From Candidatus Hermodarchaeota archaeon (GTDB taxonomy: Archaea > Asgardarchaeota > Lokiarchaeia > Sigyniarchaeales > SOKP01), in contig JBHLLO010000007.1 in the NCBI GenBank assembly GCA_048885535.1, positions 1 through 64,000 of the forward strand: DNA of 64,000 nt. Direction: 5' to 3'. Under the pieces are notes generated by a model. That model had not been told where the DNA came from. It made no database searches and worked only from the letters and a program-made list of their open reading frames with translations. A program made the translations under genes and the position numbers. Position 1 is the first letter of the stretch, and each line of letters begins with the position of its first letter. This document shows, piece after piece, positions 5,495 through 64,000 of this stretch.

Positions 5495-6106
5495 ATGAAT
5501 TTTAATGAACTGATGAGTTGGATAAACTTTATAGTTCTTAATTTGAGTATTATCTTAAGTTTTTTGTTTTATGGTTTAAGTGTTATCCCCATTACCCGTG
5601 AAGAGAAAATTGGGAAGAGTGTATGGAGGCAAAGCAATATTTTCAGAATTTTATCTGATATCATATTCTTAATCCTAATAATCACAATTTTTATGTGGAT
5701 TTGGTTCCCTATTCCTGTTTTTAATTGGAAAATACTAAATCATTACTATATTTTGATAATCCTCTCGATTTTGATTTCGATGCCATCGTTCTATATTCTT
5801 ATAAGAGCATTAAAAGATGCAGGAAAAGAAACTATTGAAACATCTAAAGAAACTCAAATGTACGGAGGAATTTATAAACATATTAGGCATCCTCAAATTT
5901 CAGGTTCTATACTGATGTTCTGTATGTTCTGTTTCATAATAAATACTCTTTTTCTATTAATTTGGATAGGAATTTTGATGATATGTATAGTTCCAATTGT
6001 AATACACTTCGAGGAAAAAGATTTAATAAAAAAATTTGGTCAAAAATATTTAATATACAAAAAAAATACAGGAGCTTTATTTCCTAAATTTTGGCAGAAA
6101 ACATAA
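5495..6106 (+). CDS. Isoprenylcysteine carboxyl methyltransferase / PEMT-family membrane methyltransferase
   Basis: Several TM helices; GIYKHIRHP and EEKDL..KFG..Y..YKK.TGALFP. Confidence 0.8.
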   Translation: MNFNELMSWINFIVLNLSIILSFLFYGLSVIPITREEKIGKSVWRQSNIFRILSDIIFLILIITIFMWIWFPIPVFNWKILNHYYILIILSILISMPSFYILIRALKDAGKETIETSKETQMYGGIYKHIRHPQISGSILMFCMFCFIINTLFLLIWIGILMICIVPIVIHFEEKDLIKKFGQKYLIYKKNTGALFPKFWQKT

Positions 6107-51627: not shown

Positions 51628-52539
51628 TTATCCTAGTATATCATGCAAATGATAGTTAAACTTTCCTAGATTACCACCATAATTTCCTGCAGAAATTTTA
51701 TTAACACCGGGAATCATTACAGCTGCATTTATTCCTAATTTCATTGCCTTTCTAATAGCATCTTCAGTGGCTCCATCCAAGATTACTTCATAAACACAAT
51801 TATCATTTTCATCTAATTCTGAATTCTCACTTTTCCCTCTCAAAGTAGGACAGAGAGGATCATTTGTTGATGCTTTAAGAAAAGAATATTTAGAACCTAC
51901 TTTTGAGCCAGATCTTGCAATACCTCCTGGAAAAGGTGTAATAACGTTCTCAACATCCTTTATTGCATCAATTGCAGCTTCAGCAGCTTTTAACCCTGCA
52001 TCTTGATTCTGAGCAAGTATTAGAAAATTTCCTCCAGCAATACCTTTTCCAACCTTAAAATTACTCTGAACTATAAATTCTCCGTCCATTACTGGAATTT
52101 TCCATACCTCAAATGGATAAAGACCTTCCCCTTGTTCTTCAAATTTGTCACCAAAAAATTTTAGCTTGTAGCCGGTTTTAATTTCAAATTCTTTATCTGG
52201 ATCAACTGAACCTTTAATTGCATCAAAACAAGCTGTAGTCGGACATGTCAAAATACATTGTCCAATCCTGTTCAGTAGTACATTATCCATCTGATCTTTT
52301 TTCGTTTTAAAGAACATTAAAATGACCCCTGGACGTTTATCAGGTGTTTCTTCTGCAGGAACAAAAACATCAATGCCAGCTTCAGAATCACAGTGAATAG
52401 TAGATGTTCCATACCCCGTTGCTACATTTGCGGCAATCTTTACCCATTTCTCATTTTTAGCAGTTACTAATATTCGTGTAAAAACCGAGGCAAAAGCCTC
52501 ACAAAATGTATCTACAATCTCAATTCCATTTATTTGCAT
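51628..52539 (-). CDS. ftr: Formylmethanofuran--tetrahydromethanopterin N-formyltransferase
   Basis: INGIEIVDTFCEAF, TPDKRPG, RIGQCILTCPTTA, PFPGGIARSGSKVGS and SAGNYGGNLG. Confidence 0.95.
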   Translation of the reverse strand: MQINGIEIVDTFCEAFASVFTRILVTAKNEKWVKIAANVATGYGTSTIHCDSEAGIDVFVPAEETPDKRPGVILMFFKTKKDQMDNVLLNRIGQCILTCPTTACFDAIKGSVDPDKEFEIKTGYKLKFFGDKFEEQGEGLYPFEVWKIPVMDGEFIVQSNFKVGKGIAGGNFLILAQNQDAGLKAAEAAIDAIKDVENVITPFPGGIARSGSKVGSKYSFLKASTNDPLCPTLRGKSENSELDENDNCVYEVILDGATEDAIRKAMKLGINAAVMIPGVNKISAGNYGGNLGKFNYHLHDILG

Positions 52540-52709
52540 TTTAAAAACAGCCTTTATTTTTTAATAGATAGCATTTATAATTAGACATCGGTTTTATATA
52601 AAATTATAAAAGTTATGCATCAGAATTTAAAAAAATATTAAAAATAGTGGGAAATTGTAAGTTAAATAATAGCTTAAATAAATATTATATTTTAGAAATG
52701 TGAATTAAA

Positions 52710-53552
52710 ATGATTGAAGAAGGCAAAATACTAAATATCGGCATTCTTAAAAATGGAACAATTGGGGCTTCTGTTTTGCTTGCTTTTCTTCTGGATGAGC
52801 GTGCTGAGTCAACAAGGATAAATGTTCGCGAAGTCACGTCTGGAGCAAAAATGCATCCACCAGAAGAGTGTGTGGAAACAATGAAAAAATTATTAGACCT
52901 TAATCCAGAATTAATCTTAATGTCAAGTCCTAATGCTGCATTAAAGGGACCAAAAGCTGCTCGAGAATTAGCAGGGAATATCCCGACTATAATAATATCT
53001 GATGCCCCCGCAAAAAAAGCTATTGAAGACTTCAAGGAAAAGAATATGGGTTATATTATTGTAGGATGTGATTCCATGATTGGGGCGCGAAGACCCTTCT
53101 TGGATCCTGTTGAAATGAGTTGCTTTAATGCAGATCTATTAAAAGTTCTCGCTATTACTGGAGCTTTGAATGTGATTGTAAATGAAATTAATAAAGTAAT
53201 AATAGATATGTTAGATGGGAGAACTCCTACATTACCTCAGATAGAAATTGATGCTAATATCGCTACTGAAGCTGCTGGATTCACAAATCCTTATGCGAAA
53301 GCAAAAGTGATTGCTGCTTTTGAAATAGCTGCCTCAGTTTCCAAGATAACAGGAAAAGCTTGTTTTGTGTTAAAAGAAAGAGAAGATTATATGCCTTTAT
53401 TAGCTGCTGCTCATGAAATGATGCGTACAGCAGCCATTATGTGTGATCAAGCAAGAGAGATTGAAAAATCAAATGACACAGTATTGCGAACACCACATCA
53501 TGCTAAACAGCATATTTTGACGAAGAGAGCGCTTATGGAAAAAGAAGAATAA
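52710..53552 (+). CDS. mtd: F420-dependent methylene-H4MPT dehydrogenase
   Basis: LLDERAE, SGAKMHP, SPNAAL.GP, MIGARRPFLDPVEM, NPYAKAK and VLRTPH. Confidence 0.95.
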   Translation: MIEEGKILNIGILKNGTIGASVLLAFLLDERAESTRINVREVTSGAKMHPPEECVETMKKLLDLNPELILMSSPNAALKGPKAARELAGNIPTIIISDAPAKKAIEDFKEKNMGYIIVGCDSMIGARRPFLDPVEMSCFNADLLKVLAITGALNVIVNEINKVIIDMLDGRTPTLPQIEIDANIATEAAGFTNPYAKAKVIAAFEIAASVSKITGKACFVLKEREDYMPLLAAAHEMMRTAAIMCDQAREIEKSNDTVLRTPHHAKQHILTKRALMEKEE

Positions 53553-53585
53553 TAATTTTTTTAAACATTTTTTTCATACTTTTTA

Positions 53586-54569
53586 TTAAAAATCAGAATT
53601 CCCTAAATATTTCTTTAAATTTTCAAAATCCTCTCCTGTTAGAGTTTCCATCACACCTGAAAAAACTTCATTAGTTTTATTGTGGGTAACAGCCATCAAG
53701 ACTGAACCATTACTTACTTCCTTAACGAGGATGTAATTATTCTCACTTTCGTAAATAATAGTTGTTAATTCTAAAGGAGTAACCGAACTACTCATAAGCT
53801 CCATAATTTTCGTAAAAATTTGGTAAATATTAGAATCAAGTGTTCCAATTTCAAATTTCATAAATTGAAGAGGTTTTGTTTCAATTTTTCCTAATGTTGA
53901 TGCAATGAGTAAACCATCAGGCTGATTGAATAATAGATACTCTGATAAAGTATTTATCTTAAGTTGATCTAATAAATGCCTTATTTTGCCTAGCTTTTGT
54001 AAAGCAAGTGTATTTTTCTGGATTTCATAATCTAATATTTCTATTAAACGGTGTTGGGCGCTACCTTCTTTTACGGAGACGGGGGTGAATGCCAGCTTTA
54101 CTTTTATATCGTCTGATATTCCTTTAATTAAATAATTGTAGAGCTGATCTTCTTTTGAATCTTGTAAATCAATCTTATTTAATAGAACATAAACAGTTTC
54201 TATCTGCGGGCTAAATTCAAAAATAAATGTCAGAAATTTCTCAAAAATCTCTTTTACTCGAGAATCAATAACAGTAGCCTCCGCCATAAAAATGGCTGTT
54301 GAAACCTCGGAAAATATGAGTTCTCGCTGATTTTCGGAAAAATATCTCTCCATATAACGTTCTTGACCGCCGGCATCCCAGACTTCTCAGAAATCACCGA
54401 ATTGGCGAGATCAGTTGAGTTCCATGATGCCGCGGAAGATAAAATTCTCTCTTGAAATGCCCTTGGTAGGTTTGAGATTCAAAACTTTCATAAAGTTATA
54501 TCCTAAGCATGTCGTCCTCATTAAGCTTGTCTTTCCGGCATTTTGTGGACCAAATAATAAAATCTTCAT
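53586..54569 (-). CDS. Rag/Gtr1-like small GTPase with a C-terminal roadblock/longin-like domain; split gene join(54569..54414, 54383..53586), 317 aa if spliced
   Basis: Exon 1 (52 codons) is MKILLFGPQNAGKTS (G1)...KPTKG (G2)...FRGIMELN. Exon 2 is VWDAGGQERYMERYF (G3)...NKID (G4) followed by roadblock-like 'YLLFNQPDGLLIAST'. The ORF track reports only the 255-aa distal part. Confidence 0.88.
54384..54413 (-). other. Putative 30-nt bulge-helix-bulge (tRNA-type) intron in mRNA
   Basis: UGAUCUCGCCAAUUCGGUGAUUUCUGAGAA with two in-frame UGA. Central helix CUCA/UGAG with 3-nt bulges AC^U and AA^G; cutting after the 2nd bulge nucleotide restores ELN-VWDAGGQ. Confidence 0.85.
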
Positions 54570-54784
54570 TTTTCAACATTATTTAAAATTGACTATATAA
54601 TATATTTCTTATAAGATTGTCTTTATATAATTTTTTCTAATTTATCTACAACTAATAGCATTTAGTAAGAAGACTAAATCTGTACGATTCAATTAAATAT
54701 CATTTTTAATTACTTTTATTAGTATAAACACTTAAAATTCTATAACAAGATATATTTTAAAATGAAAATTAAAGGTTTTTACTA

Positions 54785-55312
54785 ATGGATTTAGAGCAGT
54801 ATATCAGAAACGTTCCAGATTGGCCTAAACCTGGGATTCAATTTAAAGATGTCACAACATTGTGCAAGGCTACTGCCCCTTTTAAGGAATCTTGTGATCA
54901 AATAATTAATTATTATAAAGATAAAAGAATAGATAAAGTAGCAGCAATAGAAGCTAGAGGTTATGTATGGGGGGGCGTAATAGCCTATCAATTAGATGCA
55001 GGTTTTGTTTTAATAAGAAAACCGGGAAAACTGCCATATAAAACAATTAGCGAGACTTATGAGCTTGAATATGGTACTGACACTATAGAAATGCATATTG
55101 ATGCCATTGAAAAAGGGGAAAGAGTTTTGCTATTTGATGATTTACTAGCAACTGGAGGTACAGCAAAAGCTGCTTGTAGTTTGATTGAAAAATCTGGTGG
55201 GACAGTTATTGGAATTGCATTTATAATTGAACTTATTGGAAGTTTACATGGAAGGGATCTTATACAAGAGTATGATATTTTATCATTATTAAAAATACCA
55301 GTAGAAGAATAG
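54785..55312 (+). CDS. apt: Adenine phosphoribosyltransferase
   Basis: IRNVPDWPKPGIQFKDVT, EARG, IRKPGKLP, YELEYGTD and DDLLATGGT. Confidence 0.95.
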   Translation: MDLEQYIRNVPDWPKPGIQFKDVTTLCKATAPFKESCDQIINYYKDKRIDKVAAIEARGYVWGGVIAYQLDAGFVLIRKPGKLPYKTISETYELEYGTDTIEMHIDAIEKGERVLLFDDLLATGGTAKAACSLIEKSGGTVIGIAFIIELIGSLHGRDLIQEYDILSLLKIPVEE

Positions 55313-55472
55313 TATTCTCATAATTAAATTCTAATCTTCCTATTTTTTTGAAAATTAAGCACATATTTTTCCTGAGATTGTTAAATAATTAATTTAAGGC
55401 TGAAAATTTAAATAATTCTTACTACTTTATACTCACAATATTAAATTTAATACACAAAAAGGTGTAGATCTG

Positions 55473-56570
55473 ATGAAAAATAAGACCGAAAACATAAAAA
55501 AAACACCACTTTATGATACACACGTCAAACTAGGTGCAAGAATGGTTGAATTTGCAGGTTTTTATATGCCAGTGCAGTTTGAGAGCATTATAAAAGAGCA
55601 CCAAACAGTACGTTCAAATGCGGGAGTTTTTGATATTTCACATATGGGGGAATTTTTACTGGAAGGAAAGGATGTAGTACAATTTCTCCAATACATAATG
55701 ATTAATGATTTAAAATTACTGGAGCCGTCTAAAGGGCAATATTCGATAATGTGTTATGATAATGGGACCGTTGTTGATGACTTAGTTTACTATGAGGAGA
55801 CTCCCGAAAAGTTTAGAATGATCGTAAATGCTGGGAATATAGATAAAGATTTGAAATGGTTAAACAGTCACATTGAAAATCGAGACGTACAAATTACAAA
55901 CTTATCTGATAAGCGCTGTAGATTAGCGTTCCAAGGAATAAAGTCGGATGAATTACTCCAACCATTACTTGATACTGACTTATCAAAGATCAATAGATTT
56001 TATTTTGTTAATTGTAATTTAAGCGATGTACCTATTTTTCTGGCTCGCACTGGATATACAGGAGAAAAAGGAGTTGAGATATCACTTGAGAACAACCATG
56101 CTGAAAAGGCATGGAACGCTTTACTTGACACAGGAGCAAGCGCCATTGGATTAGGAGCCAGAGATTCCCTTAGACTAGAGGCATGTTATTCTCTTTATGG
56201 TCACGAGATTAGCGATTCAATCACCCCTATAGAGGCAGGTCTTAATTGGCTTGCAAAGCCTAAACCAGGGATAAATTACATTGGTAAAGAAATTATAGAG
56301 AAACAAAAATCTAAGGGAACCGATAGGATTTTAGTAGGTTTAAACTTGATAGATAGGGGAATAATACGAGAAAATTATCGTATTTTCAAGGATGGACAAG
56401 AAATCGGTTATGTAACCTCAGGGGGTTTTTCACCAACTCTCGATAAGACAATTGGATTAGGTTTAGTGAAAACCCAATTCAGCAAAGTAGGTACTGAAAT
56501 AGAAATCGAAATTCGTGACAAATTATTAAAAGGACATATTGTATCTATACCATTTTTTCGAAATGTATAA
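55473..56570 (+). CDS. gcvT: Glycine cleavage system aminomethyltransferase T
   Basis: KTPLY..H..LGARMVEFAG..MPV, FDISHMGE, RTGYTGEKG and GLGARDSLRLEA. Confidence 0.95.
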   Translation: MKNKTENIKKTPLYDTHVKLGARMVEFAGFYMPVQFESIIKEHQTVRSNAGVFDISHMGEFLLEGKDVVQFLQYIMINDLKLLEPSKGQYSIMCYDNGTVVDDLVYYEETPEKFRMIVNAGNIDKDLKWLNSHIENRDVQITNLSDKRCRLAFQGIKSDELLQPLLDTDLSKINRFYFVNCNLSDVPIFLARTGYTGEKGVEISLENNHAEKAWNALLDTGASAIGLGARDSLRLEACYSLYGHEISDSITPIEAGLNWLAKPKPGINYIGKEIIEKQKSKGTDRILVGLNLIDRGIIRENYRIFKDGQEIGYVTSGGFSPTLDKTIGLGLVKTQFSKVGTEIEIEIRDKLLKGHIVSIPFFRNV

Positions 56571-57041: not shown

Positions 57042-58382
57042 GTGGATTATATACCACATGATGAAAAAACAATTGAAAGAATGCTCAAAATTATTGGCTT
57101 AAATAATTTAGATGATTTATTTCAAGATATCCCAAACGATTTAAAGATTAATAAATTGAATTTACCTTCAGGGTTATCTGAACCAGATTTACTAAAGTAT
57201 TTGAAAAAATTATCCTCACAAAATAAAGTATATTCAAACTGTTTTTTAGGAGCGGGATGTTATTATCATTATATTCCGTCTGTAGTCGATTTTATAATTC
57301 AACGTTCAGAATTCTATACCTCCTATACACCTTATCAAGCAGAATCAAGTCAAGGATTCTTACAGGCTATTTATGAGTATCAAACTATAATTTCCCGAAT
57401 AACTCAGATGGATATTGCGAATGCAAGTATGTATGATGGTTCAACTGCATTAGCAGAAGCTGCAATAATGACTACAACTATTAGTGGTAAAGATTTGATA
57501 TTATTACTAGAAGGGATTCATCCGGAATATATAGAAGTAGTGAAAACATATTGTTGGGGACAAGGAATTAAGTACAAAATTATTAAATTTGAAGATTTAA
57601 AAGATGAGATTACAGAAGATGTAGCAGGATTGTTATTTCAAAGTCCTAATTTTTTTGGTGAAATTGAGAATATTGAGAATTTAGTTGAAATTGTTCGTCA
57701 AAAATCAGGAAAGTGTTTAATTGTTCAAGTAATGACTGATCCAACTTGTTTGGGTATATTAAAATCTCCTGGAGAATTAGATATTGATATATTCGTGGCT
57801 GAAGGTCAGAGTTTTGGAATTCCTCCTTCTTTTGGAGGTCCAGGCTTAGGAATTTTTACAACTAAAGAAAAATTTATAAGAAAAGTGCCTGGTCGATTAG
57901 TTGGAAAAACAAAAGAAATTCATGGAGAAAAAACTGGATTTATATTGACCCTTCAAGCTCGCGAGCAACATATACGAAGAGAGAAAGCAAGTTCAAATAT
58001 CTGTACTAATCAAGCTCTATGTTCATTAGCTGCTTTAATATATCTTTTAGCGCTAGGTAAAACTGGATTAAGAGAGATTGCTACTCAAAATTTTCAAAAG
58101 GCTCATTTTCTTAAAAATGAATTAAAAAAAATTTCAGGTTATGAAATTTTAAACAAGAAACCAACGTACAATGAATTTCTGTTAAAATGTCCCGACATTG
58201 AACGATTAATTAGTGAATGTAAGAAGAAAGAATTACTTCCTCCTTTAAATTTATCAAAATATTATCCAAAATTAAAAAATACTGCTTTAGTGTGTGTTAC
58301 AGAGGCAACTTCTCGAGAAGCAATAGAAAAGTTCATAGATGTAGCAAAATTAATTATCGAAAGTAAAGAGGAGGAAATCTAA
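57042..58382 (+). CDS. gcvPA: Glycine dehydrogenase (decarboxylating) subunit 1
   Basis: YTPYQAESSQG, NASMYDG and REQHIRREKASSNICTNQ. Confidence 0.95.
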   Translation: MDYIPHDEKTIERMLKIIGLNNLDDLFQDIPNDLKINKLNLPSGLSEPDLLKYLKKLSSQNKVYSNCFLGAGCYYHYIPSVVDFIIQRSEFYTSYTPYQAESSQGFLQAIYEYQTIISRITQMDIANASMYDGSTALAEAAIMTTTISGKDLILLLEGIHPEYIEVVKTYCWGQGIKYKIIKFEDLKDEITEDVAGLLFQSPNFFGEIENIENLVEIVRQKSGKCLIVQVMTDPTCLGILKSPGELDIDIFVAEGQSFGIPPSFGGPGLGIFTTKEKFIRKVPGRLVGKTKEIHGEKTGFILTLQAREQHIRREKASSNICTNQALCSLAALIYLLALGKTGLREIATQNFQKAHFLKNELKKISGYEILNKKPTYNEFLLKCPDIERLISECKKKELLPPLNLSKYYPKLKNTALVCVTEATSREAIEKFIDVAKLIIESKEEEI

Positions 58383-63263: not shown

Positions 63264-64000
63264 TTAATGTTCCAGCTGTTTTTTAACTGAAATATTACAG
63301 TTCTCTAAAAATTCATCGACTTTATAAGATGGTATTTTTGCACCTGCAGCTAAGGGGTGTCCTCCTCCAAGAGTATCTATATTTGTTAACTTTAACGTAT
63401 CTCTTACTACTTCTGATAAATTTAATCCTTTCTTTAATAATATTTCGTTAGCTCTAGCTGAAACCTTATATATATCTTCATCAACTCTTTTAGCAAATCC
63501 AAATATAGGTTTTGTGTTATCTATCAATTCGTTCTCCTCAAAAATTAACATAGAACAAATGGTGCCAATTATATTTTCTGGAATAACATCTTCACCGAAA
63601 AAATATTGAATGAACTCTTTTTGTTGAATTTTTTTATTTTCATAAATCCATGATAATGCTTTAGAAATAGATTTTTTATACAAAATTAAGTTTTCCTGAG
63701 CTTTTTGAAATGCATTTGTTCTATCACCCATCGCAACGGCAATTCCTAATGCACCGTTATCAGTTCTTCCACACGAATTCAATAAATTCGAAAATTCACT
63801 CAGATCATTAAGTTCTGGTACATTGATTTCATTTTTTAATATATATCTGTTAATTATTAATTTAGTGATTACTTCATTCGGATCAAGATTTAATTTAACC
63901 GATGTATATCTTATAATTGCCGATGAAACTTTTTGTTTTTCACTCTGATTTAACTCATTTAATGTTTTTATGTTTCCATTTGTGTTTTTCATTAACACAC
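63264..64000 (-). CDS. DHH-family RecJ/GAN-like phosphoesterase, C-terminal DHHA1 part (5' end outside the window)
   Basis: EFSNLLNSCGR, KVSAR and GGGHPLAAGA. Confidence 0.82.
   Translation of the reverse strand, partial: VLMKNTNGNIKTLNELNQSEKQKVSSAIIRYTSVKLNLDPNEVITKLIINRYILKNEINVPELNDLSEFSNLLNSCGRTDNGALGIAVAMGDRTNAFQKAQENLILYKKSISKALSWIYENKKIQQKEFIQYFFGEDVIPENIIGTICSMLIFEENELIDNTKPIFGFAKRVDEDIYKVSARANEILLKKGLNLSEVVRDTLKLTNIDTLGGGHPLAAGAKIPSYKVDEFLENCNISVKKQLEH

What the first reader, a model, noticed from the sequence alone, without database searches (positions are those of the whole stretch)
54384..54413. Bulge-helix-bulge mRNA intron interrupting an Asgard Rag-like GTPase gene
Seen: on the minus strand the frame from ATG 54569 reads ...GAA CUC AAC | UGA UCU CGC CAA UUC GGU GAU UUC UGA GAA | GUC UGG GAU GCC GGC GGU CAA. 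Deleting the 30 nt gives ELN-VWDAGGQERYMERYF, the uninterrupted Rag/Gtr1 beta3-G3 segment. Independently, the RNA folds into a BHB: 4-bp central helix CUCA/UGAG, 3-nt bulges ACU and AAG each 3' of the helix, and an inner hairpin (GA/UC plus UCGCC/GGUGA closing AAUUC). Established: the archaeal splicing endonuclease EndA cuts after the second nucleotide of each bulge and RtcB ligates the exons; the classic archaeal pre-mRNA example is cbf5 in Crenarchaeota. Those cuts (AC^U, AA^G) coincide exactly with the boundaries implied by the protein motif. Inference: an EndA-spliced mRNA intron in a eukaryotic-signature gene, which gene callers would miss or call a pseudogene. I know of no description of this case.
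Basis: partly seen in the sequence, partly recalled or inferred. Interest (0 to 1): 0.96.

Follow-up and report, generated by a model that had tools for sequence, protein, structure and literature searches.

The report
Tiny mRNA intron in Asgard GTPase gene
A 30-base insert with stop codons splits a conserved Rag-like GTPase gene of an Asgard archaeon, and it folds into the shape that the tRNA-splicing enzyme cuts, so it is most likely a rare archaeal messenger-RNA intron.

Summary
Window 54384-54413 (minus strand) holds 30 nt with two in-frame TGA codons. They sit exactly between Pfam Gtr1_RagA profile positions 51 and 52. [quoted passage not shown]

The insert is real DNA: contigs of 4 runs span it without a gap. 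54 of 54 orthologous loci lack it. A search of 154 genomes of the order found the same insert at the same site in two other species of the genus, with the BHB kept and the gene under purifying selection (dN/dS 0.128).

I also found a second 30-nt stop-bearing insert of the same layout in a nucleoside/AMP-phosphorylase-like gene of this genome. It is shared by 30 genomes of 7 genera. Its BHB shows strong covariation, including an exon codon third base that covaries with an intron base.

The genome encodes two EndA paralogues and RtcB.

No RNA data were available, so splicing itself is inferred. Six literature searches found no description of this. Best reading: EndA/RtcB-spliced mRNA mini-introns, a new member of the cbf5 kind, now in Asgard archaea.

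The parts
54414..54569 (-). Exon 1 of the Gtr1/RagA-like GTPase gene: ATG at 54569, 52 codons, P-loop GPQNAGKT through ...GIMELN
   Evidence: ORF list. Pfam PF04670 profile 1-51, E 2.7e-4, 20.9 bits, just under the cut-off of 22 for this short piece alone. The exact 52-aa product is called on 3 contigs in the protein collection.
54384..54413 (-). 30-nt phase-0 insert (putative BHB intron) with in-frame TGA at 54413-54411 and 54389-54387
   Evidence: Absent from 54 of 54 orthologous loci. Present at the same site in G035 and G048. Spanned by contigs of 4 runs with no gap.
53586..54383 (-). Exon 2: VWDAGGQ (G3 motif), the rest of the G domain and the C-terminal domain; stop codon at 53586-53588
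   Evidence: Pfam PF04670 profile 52-145, E 1.7e-10. The intact orthologue P0002 aligns to yeast Gtr1 over residues 5-287.
54416..54419 (-). 5' strand (CUCA, exon) of the 4-bp central helix
   Evidence: MFE. Pair probabilities 0.77-0.80 at 37 C and 0.81-0.83 at 20 C in a 230-nt context. Invariant in the 3 intron-bearing species.
54413..54415 (-). 5' bulge ACU; predicted cut after the C at 54414
   Evidence: Unpaired in the MFE of all 3 species. The cut rule (between the second and third bulge residues) is taken from passages of PMC2738675.
54390..54412 (-). Inner intron hairpin: GA/UC (h'), 2x2 internal loop, UCGCC/GGUGA stem, AAUUC loop
   Evidence: MFE. In G035/G048, C-G is replaced by U-A at one pair, and G.U becomes G/G at another.
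54386..54389 (-). 3' strand (UGAG, intron) of the central helix
54383..54385 (-). 3' bulge AAG; predicted cut after the A at 54384
   Evidence: Unpaired in the MFE of all 3 species.
54421..54439 (-). 5' arm of the exon-exon outer stem (UCUU, CCGC, GGCAUC, GGA)
   Evidence: MFE. 17 of 17 named exon-exon pairs form, 10 of them G-C. The 54 orthologues average 13.1 pairs (max 16) and 2.35 G-C pairs (max 6). The structure was derived from this sequence, so the comparison favours it.
54361..54382 (-). 3' arm of the exon-exon outer stem (UCU, GAUGCC, GCGG, AAGA)
   Evidence: MFE. GC3 is 12 of 17 codons round the junction against 0.30 for the whole gene, binomial P 5.8e-4.

Best explanation
The 30 nt at window 54384-54413 (minus strand) are an archaeal bulge-helix-bulge intron inside the coding sequence of a single-copy Gtr1/RagA-like GTPase gene.

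Proposed mechanism: in the pre-mRNA, the last exon-1 bases (CUCA) pair with UGAG near the intron's 3' end. This sets two 3-nt bulges (ACU, AAG) four base pairs apart, held by an intron hairpin and a G+C-rich exon-exon stem. The heteromeric splicing endonuclease EndA cuts after the second base of each bulge. RtcB joins the exons to give ...GIMELN-VWDAGGQ... and probably circularises the 30-mer. Without removal, translation stops after 52 residues.

Shown here: the sequence, the fold, the exact match of predicted cuts and insert ends, conservation in three species, purifying selection on intron-bearing genes, the presence of the enzymes, and a sister intron with strong covariation.

Inferred: cleavage and ligation themselves, the circular product, and any regulatory use.
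For: 1. The exact 30 nt split Pfam PF04670 at profile 51|52. Read through, the domain is one stretch with a 10-residue insert.

2. The BHB is in the MFE in the exact register in G000, G035 and G048. Shuffle nulls gave 0/5000 strict, 3/5000 relaxed and 22/20000 by sequence class.

3. The DNA is real. Contigs of 4 runs span it with 0 gaps and no contig skips it. The truncated 52-aa ORF is on 3 contigs.

4. It is the only orthologue in the genome. The gene is found in 138 of 154 genomes of the order.

5. G035 and G048 both carry the intron and differ by 34 synonymous against 19 non-synonymous changes (dN/dS 0.128). The gene has therefore stayed under selection with the insert in place. Window against relatives gives dN/dS 0.034-0.046.

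6. All 5 differences between the G000 and G035 introns lie outside the central helix, the bulges and the first two inner pairs. One of them is a compensatory C-G to U-A change.

7. Two EndA paralogues (200 and 205 aa, 34% identity) match the C-terminal and N-terminal halves of the two-repeat EndA model. RtcB is present at 560.9 bits. Passages of PMC5829648 say Asgard archaea have the (alpha-beta)2 type with the L1 loop, which is linked to relaxed BHB substrates.

8. A sister case exists: a 30-nt stop-bearing insert in the phosphorylase-like gene of 30 genomes of 7 genera.
- On the alignment, 90.3% of cells pair against 82.9 +/- 0.6 in shuffles.
- 10 pairs change on both sides, and 0 of 500 shuffles reach any measure.
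- The central helix pairs in 120 of 120 cells.
- At one pair the exon His-codon third base covaries with an intron base (UA 21, CG 9).
- RNAalifold finds the same structure unaided.
- Intron-bearing copies of that gene differ mostly synonymously (188:37, 169:59, 183:37, 161:45).
Against: - No RNA evidence of any kind. No RNA run holds the locus, so cleavage, ligation and the circular intron are unobserved.
- For the GTPase intron alone, covariation is not significant: 3 sequences, 1 compensatory pair, 1 pair broken in two of them, and 167 of 500 shuffles reach the observed values.
- The 3' site is not a clean 3-nt bulge in the MFE. One A lies opposite, and the adjacent exon helix h has only 1 contiguous pair.
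- Part of the G+C-rich 5' flank is shared with intron-less relatives such as L003. It also lies in a recombinant tract. It therefore cannot be read simply as adaptation to the intron.
- The covariance model built from the phosphorylase introns does not detect the GTPase intron at E up to 10. The two are not shown to be one sequence family.
- In G000's own phosphorylase intron, the BHB conformer is 2.7 kcal/mol above the MFE and the region's z-score is only -1.0.
Confidence: 0.85

Rival explanations
1. Pseudogene: a chance 30-nt insertion killed the gene, and the BHB-like fold is coincidence.
For: - Two in-frame stops.
- The insert is rare: 3 of 138 genomes of the order with the gene have it.
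- A reader scanning very many windows will meet some coincidences.
- There is no RNA evidence.
Against: - The same insert persists in three species, with no other lesion in 317 codons.
- dN/dS between the two intron-bearing congeners is 0.128.
- It is the only orthologue in the genome.
- The shuffle nulls are at or below 0.11%.
- A second insert of the same layout is kept in 30 genomes of 7 genera, with compensatory changes and mostly synonymous divergence of its host gene.
Confidence: 0.04
2. Programmed translational bypass: the ribosome hops over 30 nt, as in phage T4 gene 60 (recalled), so the insert stays in the mRNA.
For: A stop codon directly follows the last sense codon, and a hairpin sits inside the gap. 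These are features recalled from gene 60.
Against: - Take-off and landing codons do not match: AAC before the gap against GAA as the last gap codon in the GTPase.
- In the phosphorylase gene, ACA/ACT precedes the gap and the last gap codon varies (AAA, ACT, AAC, ATT, AAT, AAG, ACA).
- The covarying helix joins exon bases upstream of the gap to the 3' end of the gap, with fixed 3-nt bulges. That is BHB geometry, not a take-off hairpin.
Confidence: 0.03
3. Stop-codon recoding or readthrough (TGA read as Sec, Trp or Gly) gives a protein with 10 extra residues.
For: - Both stops in the GTPase insert are TGA.
- Asgard lineages with recoded stops are reported (PMC9723677, search listing and abstract only).
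- This genome has a likely Sec TGA in an HdrA-like gene.
Against: - 135 of 138 genomes of the order with the gene have no extra residues there.
- The insert would lie directly before the G3 motif DxxGQ.
- The other ORFs examined round the gene (window 52500-56000) read through under table 11.
- The sister insert carries TAG, TAA and TGA at varying positions in different genomes.
Confidence: 0.02
4. EndA cuts the BHB but the exons are not always religated. The element would act as a switch that destroys or limits the mRNA, or is spliced only under some conditions, in the way eukaryotes use IRE1/RtcB on HAC1/XBP1 (recalled).
For: - The BHB evidence is the same as for the main reading.
- The genes hit are a nutrient-signalling-type GTPase and a nucleotide-salvage-type enzyme.
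- In Haloferax, removal of a 5' UTR BHB intron appears to be needed for efficient expression (passages of PMC7714728).
Against: - Nothing here speaks to conditionality.
- The patchy presence and at least 12 gains or losses on the phosphorylase tree fit a tolerated passenger better than a needed switch.
Confidence: 0.06

Closest known systems
cbf5 pre-mRNA BHB intron of Crenarchaeota (Watanabe 2002, recalled via citations; Yokobori 2009, PMC2738675, passages seen)
   Same: - An intron inside a protein-coding sequence, bounded by a BHB-like motif.
- Predicted cuts between the second and third bulge residues fit the exon borders.
- Often a relaxed motif, tied to a heteromeric EndA.
- Sits at a catalytic-motif codon.
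- A history of gain and loss.
   Different: - Host phylum: Asgard/Promethearchaeota, not Crenarchaeota.
- Host genes: a Gtr1/RagA-like GTPase and a phosphorylase.
- Fixed 30-nt size and phase 0 for the GTPase (the cbf5 intron lies between codon bases 1 and 2).
- cbf5 splicing was shown by cDNA; here it is inferred.
BHB intron in the 5' UTR of Haloferax volcanii HVO_1309 mRNA (PMC7714728, passages seen)
   Same: An mRNA substrate of the tRNA splicing endonuclease outside tRNA and rRNA.
   Different: It lies in an untranslated leader, so it does not interrupt a reading frame. It was shown in vivo and in vitro. The host is a euryarchaeon with a different EndA type.
Non-canonical BHB introns of Asgard tRNA genes (PMC11291895; preprint 10.64898/2026.10.13.758758; passages only)
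   Same: - Same clade, same enzyme and same motif classes (hBHBh', HBh').
- Repeated gains.
- Two EndA paralogues in most genomes.
   Different: Those papers, in the passages I saw, treat tRNA genes only; the preprint has 0 occurrences of 'mRNA'. Here the host RNAs are mRNAs and the exon half of the motif is coding sequence.
IRE1/RtcB splicing of HAC1/XBP1 mRNA in eukaryotes (recalled; RtcB role seen only in abstracts listed)
   Same: Non-spliceosomal removal of a short intron from an mRNA by an endonuclease, followed by RtcB-type ligation. The intron blocks production of the functional protein.
   Different: A different endonuclease and a different recognition structure (paired stem-loops, not a BHB). 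It is stress-regulated. No relatedness is claimed.

Membership tests
Archaeal BHB intron (EndA substrate) | [quoted passage not shown] | tested here: met
   The MFE of G000, G035 and G048 holds CUCA/UGAG with ACU and AAG unpaired. In G000's MFE one A lies opposite the 3' bulge.
Archaeal BHB intron (EndA substrate) | Cuts after the second base of each bulge give the correct exon junction | tested here: met
   The predicted cuts at 54414|54413 and 54384|54383 equal the ends fixed by 54 intron-less orthologues and by Pfam profile 51|52.
Archaeal BHB intron (EndA substrate) | At least one flanking helix (h or h') of 2 or more contiguous pairs | tested here: met
   h' has 2 pairs (G-C, A-U). h has only 1 contiguous pair, or 3 pairs after a 1-nt bulge. 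This is class HBh' by the rule quoted from the 2026 preprint.
Archaeal BHB intron (EndA substrate) | Base pairs supported by compensatory change | tested here: inconclusive
   GTPase intron: 31 of 33 cells paired, 1 compensatory pair, 167 of 500 shuffles as high. The sister phosphorylase intron is strongly supported: 0 of 500 shuffles, 10 pairs with double-sided change.
Archaeal BHB intron (EndA substrate) | Host encodes the splicing endonuclease and an RtcB ligase | tested here: met
   PF01974 matches at 99.7 and 70.2 bits and PF01139 at 560.9 bits. TIGR00324 at 100.8 and 88.8 bits.
Archaeal BHB intron (EndA substrate) | Cleavage and exon ligation observed in RNA | not testable with these tools
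   No listed holder of the locus is an RNA run.
Gtr1/RagA family GTPase | G domain matching the family profile above its cut-off | tested here: met
   Intact orthologue P0002: PF04670 E 3.2e-21, 76.3 bits (cut-off 22). Read-through of the window gene: 62.5 bits.
Gtr1/RagA family GTPase | C-terminal dimerisation (roadblock-type) domain after the G domain | tested here: inconclusive
   The sequence alignment to yeast Gtr1 chains runs over residues 5-287 of 320, E 2e-18, so it reaches into the C-terminal half. No fold was predicted and no partner was sought.
Programmed translational bypass | Matching take-off and landing codons at the gap ends | tested here: not met
   AAC against GAA. In the phosphorylase gene the gap ends vary. 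The rule itself is recalled.
One sequence family with the phosphorylase-gene intron | Detected by a covariance model built from the 30 phosphorylase introns | tested here: not met
   Model R1 scores the C28 intron at 52.1 bits. It gives no match at 54384-54413 with E up to 10 and filters off. Only the layout 1+9+5+9+4+2 = 30 nt is shared.

The most novel reading that the evidence does not exclude
Lokiarchaeia-type Asgard archaea carry a class of 30-nt BHB mini-introns in protein-coding genes. One is as old as a family of genera and has been lost precisely many times. Another is young and has moved between species by homologous recombination together with its upstream exon. On this reading, mRNA splicing by the tRNA-splicing machinery (EndA plus RtcB) is a normal step of gene expression in close archaeal relatives of eukaryotes. 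It may also be used to gate the expression of a Rag-like nutrient-signalling GTPase, much as eukaryotes gate HAC1/XBP1.
Probability: 0.3. Interest if true: 0.93.

Novelty: new member of a known kind. Interest (0 to 1): 0.85.

Why it matters
According to a 2020 paper, the only BHB introns reported in archaeal mRNAs were the cbf5 intron of Crenarchaeota and one 5' UTR case in Haloferax (passages of PMC7714728). The present case adds two coding-sequence introns in Asgard archaea, the closest known archaeal relatives of eukaryotes. One of them sits in a eukaryote-signature Rag/Gtr1-like GTPase.

Practical consequence: gene callers split or truncate these genes. The public protein collection holds the 52-aa and 180-aa stubs. 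Surveys of eukaryote-signature proteins and of metabolism will therefore miscount them as missing or broken.

Conceptual consequences:
- The relaxed-specificity EndA of Asgard archaea appears to tolerate introns in mRNAs over long times.
- There are 33 natural sequences (30 + 3) in which exon coding constraints and BHB constraints can be studied together.
- Experiments become directly possible: cleavage with recombinant EndA alpha/beta, and RT-PCR on sediment RNA.
- It bears on how non-spliceosomal mRNA splicing could arise before eukaryotes.

Tried and rejected
RNA evidence. The run search listed 19 runs, 4 holding half or more of the words. No RNA holder was listed, so expression and splicing could not be examined.

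Assembly artefact. Rejected, because contigs of 4 runs (one study) cover the insert with no gap and no joint. The stub ORFs occur on several contigs.

A second copy or donor of the insert.
- blastn-short in the genome found nothing beyond 14-nt matches (E 0.17).
- The 30-mer with up to 3 mismatches occurs in 1 of 42 genomes of the genus, the window's own.

Metagenome scan for orthologues with any 10-40 nt insert at the site. It returned 28 stretches, all other GTPase families read in another frame or with translated segments. None was an orthologous intron.

Short-protein search with the 52-aa piece. It gave 2 hits, neither with the intron signature.

Rfam. There was no meaningful match in 54200-54650: 3 matches at E 0.15-6.6, all far below their gathering scores.

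Genome-wide ORF-fusion BHB scans.
- A first scan that required an adjacent outer helix gave 11,859 loose candidates. Of those up to 100 nt long, 3 had the BHB in the MFE, and only the window's was strong.
- That scan missed the second intron, which I noticed while checking a wrong candidate.
- Rescans without the outer-helix rule gave 7,366 candidates. Filters by hairpin, coding score, length 27-33 and enclosing G+C stem left only the two introns with credible protein context.
- These scans need 50 open codons on both sides, a stop inside the insert and a length of 12-70 nt. Introns without stops, longer ones or ones near gene ends would be missed, so this is not a census.
- The coding-score filter would have dropped the GTPase case itself (exon 1 scored -3.0).

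Co-conversion round the phosphorylase intron of G000. No local tract is closer to intron-bearing genera, so no lateral-transfer claim is made for that gene.

One sequence family for both introns. Not supported. An R1 hit at window 63488-63519 lies in an intact 244-aa ORF and is chance.

Stops flagged in the order-wide search. 15 rows with '1 TAA' and 2 with '1 TGA' have normal match lengths. I checked only the two TGA cases (G146, G078), and both genes are intact. The 15 TAA rows were not checked one by one.

Exon-stem adaptation. I first read the G+C-rich flanks as adaptation to the intron. The 5' flank is shared with clade-B relatives and lies in the recombinant tract, so I now give it little weight.

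Limits of what I could see.
Supplements of PMC5829648, PMC11291895 and the 2026 preprint might list non-tRNA BHB hits that I could not see.
- All papers were seen as search listings, abstracts and 'find' passages only, never as whole texts.
- 'No description found' rests in the held library only.
Full report
WHAT IS THERE

On the minus strand of the window, a frame opens at ATG 54569 and runs 52 codons (MKILLFGPQNAGKTS...GIMELN) to a TGA at 54413-54411. Thirty bases later the same frame continues with VWDAGGQERYMERYF... for 265 codons, to a stop at 53586-53588. The 30 bases (54384-54413) hold two in-frame TGA codons.

Pfam's Gtr1_RagA model matches the upstream piece at profile positions 1-51 and the downstream piece at 52-145. 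The break in the protein family model therefore falls exactly at the two ends of the insert. Read through with X at the stops, the domain is one stretch carrying a 10-residue insert. The ends cannot be slid by even one base, because the bases at the two boundaries differ.

THE GENE AND THE ORGANISM

Close relatives are annotated in MAGs named Promethearchaeota, Hodarchaeota, Thorarchaeota and the like, that is Asgard archaea. The intact orthologue P0002 (320 aa) scores 76.3 bits on Gtr1_RagA. It aligns to yeast Gtr1 chains over residues 5-287 (E 2e-18) and to human RagA over the G domain (E 1.8e-13). 'Rag/Gtr1-like GTPase' is thus a fair name. I did not fold the C-terminal half.

The genome is a MAG of 3.09 Mb in 112 contigs, 30% G+C, 91.6% complete. 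It has this one orthologue only; the other 9 hits are at or below 34% identity.

THE FOLD

The 81 nt round the insert fold at -32.1 kcal/mol (z -3.05). The fold contains:
- a 4-bp helix CUCA/UGAG;
- a 3-nt bulge ACU on the 5' strand;
- an inner GA/UC pair set stacked on the helix, a 2x2 loop, and a UCGCC/GGUGA stem closing AAUUC;
- AAG unpaired on the 3' strand;
- an exon-exon stem beyond (GGA/UCU, GGCAUC/GAUGCC, CCGC/GCGG, UCUU/AAGA).

In a 230-nt context the central pairs have probability 0.77-0.80 at 37 C and 0.81-0.83 at 20 C. The predicted cuts, after the second base of each bulge, fall at the insert ends. That cut rule is stated for cbf5 in passages of PMC2738675.

One blemish: in the MFE a single A lies opposite the 3' bulge. 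By the class rule quoted from the 2026 preprint (all four central pairs plus one flanking helix of two pairs) the motif is HBh'.

Chance is low. 0 of 5000 shuffled inserts give this BHB in the MFE under the strict test and 3 of 5000 under a relaxed one. 22 of 20000 reach the sequence-level class at the exact ends. If the true insert is moved to other codon boundaries of the gene, 21 of 297 reach that class, because the intron half of the motif travels with it.

IS THE DNA REAL?

Logan contigs of four runs (four samples, one study) cover the 30 nt with no gap:
- a 603-nt contig with no difference;
- a 104-nt and a 120-nt contig with no difference;
- a 522-nt contig with 8 differences elsewhere.

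No contig joins across the insert. The exact 52-aa stub is in the public protein collection on 3 contigs from several sources. Another contig carries a gene call that starts at the same internal MERYF.

RELATIVES

In 58 loci from species representatives, 54 hold both pieces. In all 54 the pieces abut with no insert.

A wider six-frame search of 154 genomes of the order found the gene in 138. It flagged two further genomes of the same genus, G035 and G048, with '2 TGA' and a match 30 nt longer. Their sequences show a 30-nt insert at the identical site, 25 of 30 bases identical to the window's.

The five differences lie in the inner hairpin and loops. None touches the central helix, the bulges or the first two inner pairs. 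One pair changes C-G to U-A, and one G.U becomes G/G. The BHB is in the MFE in the exact register in all three species, although the exon-exon stem is built in a different register in G035/G048 (CUUCCGCG/CGCGGGAG).

With three sequences this covariation is not significant by itself (167 of 500 shuffles).

More telling is selection. G035 and G048 both carry the insert, and their genes differ by 34 synonymous and 19 non-synonymous changes (dS 0.20, dN 0.026, ratio 0.128). A gene dead since before their split would not look like this.

HISTORY OF THE GTPASE INTRON

On an exon-only tree the three intron-bearing genes are not one clade. The window's gene groups with intron-less G010/G018 (100/99). 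G035/G048 group with intron-less G037, G050, G045 and L003 (100/99). A tree forcing the three together is rejected (AU p 0.00024).

The window's gene is a mosaic.

| Region | Differences to G035/G048 | Differences to G010/G018 |
|---|---|---|
| Exon 1 (153 nt compared) | 14 | 29-33 |
| Last 555 nt of exon 2 | 121-124 | 75-77 |

A recombination break at or near the intron is the simplest account. Either the intron came in with its upstream exon from the other lineage, or an old intron-bearing gene had its 3' part replaced. This also tempers my earlier reading of the G+C-rich flanks as adaptation (17 of 17 exon-exon pairs, 10 of them G-C; GC3 12 of 17 against 0.30), since the 5' flank belongs to that tract.

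A SECOND INTRON

While checking a false candidate from my genome scan, I saw that a gene on contig C28 reads ...GMDVYDKHST DIYT**ILLK GGVPGNKVSL.... Its Pfam matches are Glycos_trans_3N, Glycos_transf_3 and PYNP_C, which mark a nucleoside/AMP-phosphorylase type. Again the insert is 30 nt, here with TAG TAA, inside a conserved motif. 18 of 19 loci from relatives are uninterrupted there; the 19th is cut short.

The ends may slide by one base. Only the -1 register gives a BHB class: CAGU/GCUG, with bulges ACA and AAA. In this genome the BHB conformer is 2.7 kcal/mol above the MFE.

A family-wide search (135 genomes, 121 with the gene) then showed 30 genomes of 7 genera with a match 30 nt longer and with stops inside. 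I fetched 29 of them. All have the insert at the same site, with TAG, TAA or TGA at varying places.

On the 30-sequence alignment:
- My named structure pairs in 90.3% of cells, against 82.9 +/- 0.6 in shuffles and 31-54% when slid.
- 10 pairs show double-sided change, and 0 of 500 shuffles reach any of the five measures.
- The central helix pairs in 120 of 120 cells.
- Its first pair is U-A in 21 sequences and C-G in 9. That is, the third base of the exon's His codon covaries with an intron base.
- RNAalifold, given only the alignment, returns the same 4-bp helix, 3-nt bulge and 9-bp hairpin.

On the gene tree (52 rows, 29 with the intron) at least 12 gains or losses are needed, 9 of them forced by well-supported branches. 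The deepest lineages of the family all carry the intron. It is therefore old and has been lost precisely many times. Intron-bearing copies differ mostly synonymously (188:37, 169:59, 183:37 and 161:45 single-difference codons).

Both introns share the layout 1 + 9 + 5 + 9 + 4 + 2 = 30 nt. A covariance model of the phosphorylase introns does not find the GTPase intron, so common descent is not shown.

THE MACHINERY

The genome has two EndA-family ORFs (200 and 205 aa, 34% identical over 89 residues). One matches the C-terminal half and the other the N-terminal half of the two-repeat EndA model. It also has one RtcB. Passages of PMC5829648 state that Asgard archaea have the (alpha-beta)2 type with the L1 insert that goes with relaxed BHB substrates.

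The genome also has intron-bearing tRNA genes. ARAGORN predicts introns in 23 of 34, and 9 of the 23 have a canonical-class BHB within 4 nt of the call. ARAGORN's intron calls are not BHB-aware, so the 23 is soft.

RIVALS

- A dead gene does not fit the selection data, nor the second intron.
- Ribosome hopping does not fit, because the codons at the gap ends do not match and the covarying helix is BHB-shaped.
- Recoding does not fit, because all three stop codons occur in the sister insert and most orthologues lack the extra residues.
- A conditional or destructive use of the cut cannot be excluded and is kept as a minor rival.

WHAT IS NOT SHOWN

There is no RNA evidence. No RNA run held the locus. 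The genome scans that found only two introns are not a census.

COMPARISON WITH WHAT IS KNOWN

The kind is known: the cbf5 intron of Crenarchaeota. A 2020 paper says that cbf5 was the only additional BHB intron reported in archaea, besides its own 5' UTR case (passages).

Six searches of the held library found nothing on BHB introns in Asgard mRNAs. The two Asgard intron papers I could look into deal with tRNA genes, in the passages I saw. Supplements were closed, and subscription journals are not in the library.

VERDICT

This is a new member of a known kind, found in a clade and in genes where it matters. It now has 33 natural sequences to work with and a clear set of bench tests.

Scores: confidence in the splicing reading 0.85; interest 0.85.

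Noticed in passing
G000:C28:21548-21577 (minus strand; locus L098 1148-1177), outside the window: A second 30-nt insert (TAG TAA) splits DKHST|GGVPGNK of a Glycos_transf_3/PYNP_C phosphorylase-like gene. The same insert is present in 30 genomes of 7 genera, with strong BHB covariation.
   Followed up: yes
G000:C50 about 5728-5773 (plus strand), outside the window: An in-frame TGA sits in a sequence reading ...CIVVSA*TPRTHEPVYRGS...NPYFFQMVNVREH. From memory this resembles HdrA with selenocysteine at that place, so it is probably a Sec codon and not an intron.
   Followed up: no
Proteins P0003, P0024, P0028 and many others of 289-292 aa: Many public gene calls for intact orthologues start at Met27 (MKVLNLKPTKG...) and so lack the P-loop. 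The loci I checked encode the full N terminus in frame. This looks like a start-codon choice by gene callers.
   Followed up: partly
G139:C103 (L159) and G139:C128 (L145): One MAG holds two copies of the phosphorylase gene, one without and one with the 30-nt insert. The MAG is listed with 9% contamination, so these may be two strains.
   Followed up: no
window 53586-54569 against G035/G048 and G010/G018: The GTPase gene is a recombinant mosaic. Exon 1 is close to the intron-bearing lineage and most of exon 2 to the sister lineage. The last 140 nt or so are again closer to the other clade.
   Followed up: partly
window 58127-58150, both strands: An A+U-rich perfect hairpin (AAAAAUUU...AAAUUUU) gives the best, though weak, partial hit of model R1 in the window (19.2 bits, E 0.083). 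It matches the hairpin part only and has no central helix.
   Followed up: no
G000:C43:12903-12976 (minus strand), outside the window: An 11-bp G+C-rich stem (UGGUGGGACCU/AGGUCCCACUG) brackets the boundary between two genes. The downstream gene starts ...YDIIVLGGGPTA. It is probably a gene-boundary structure and not an intron.
   Followed up: no
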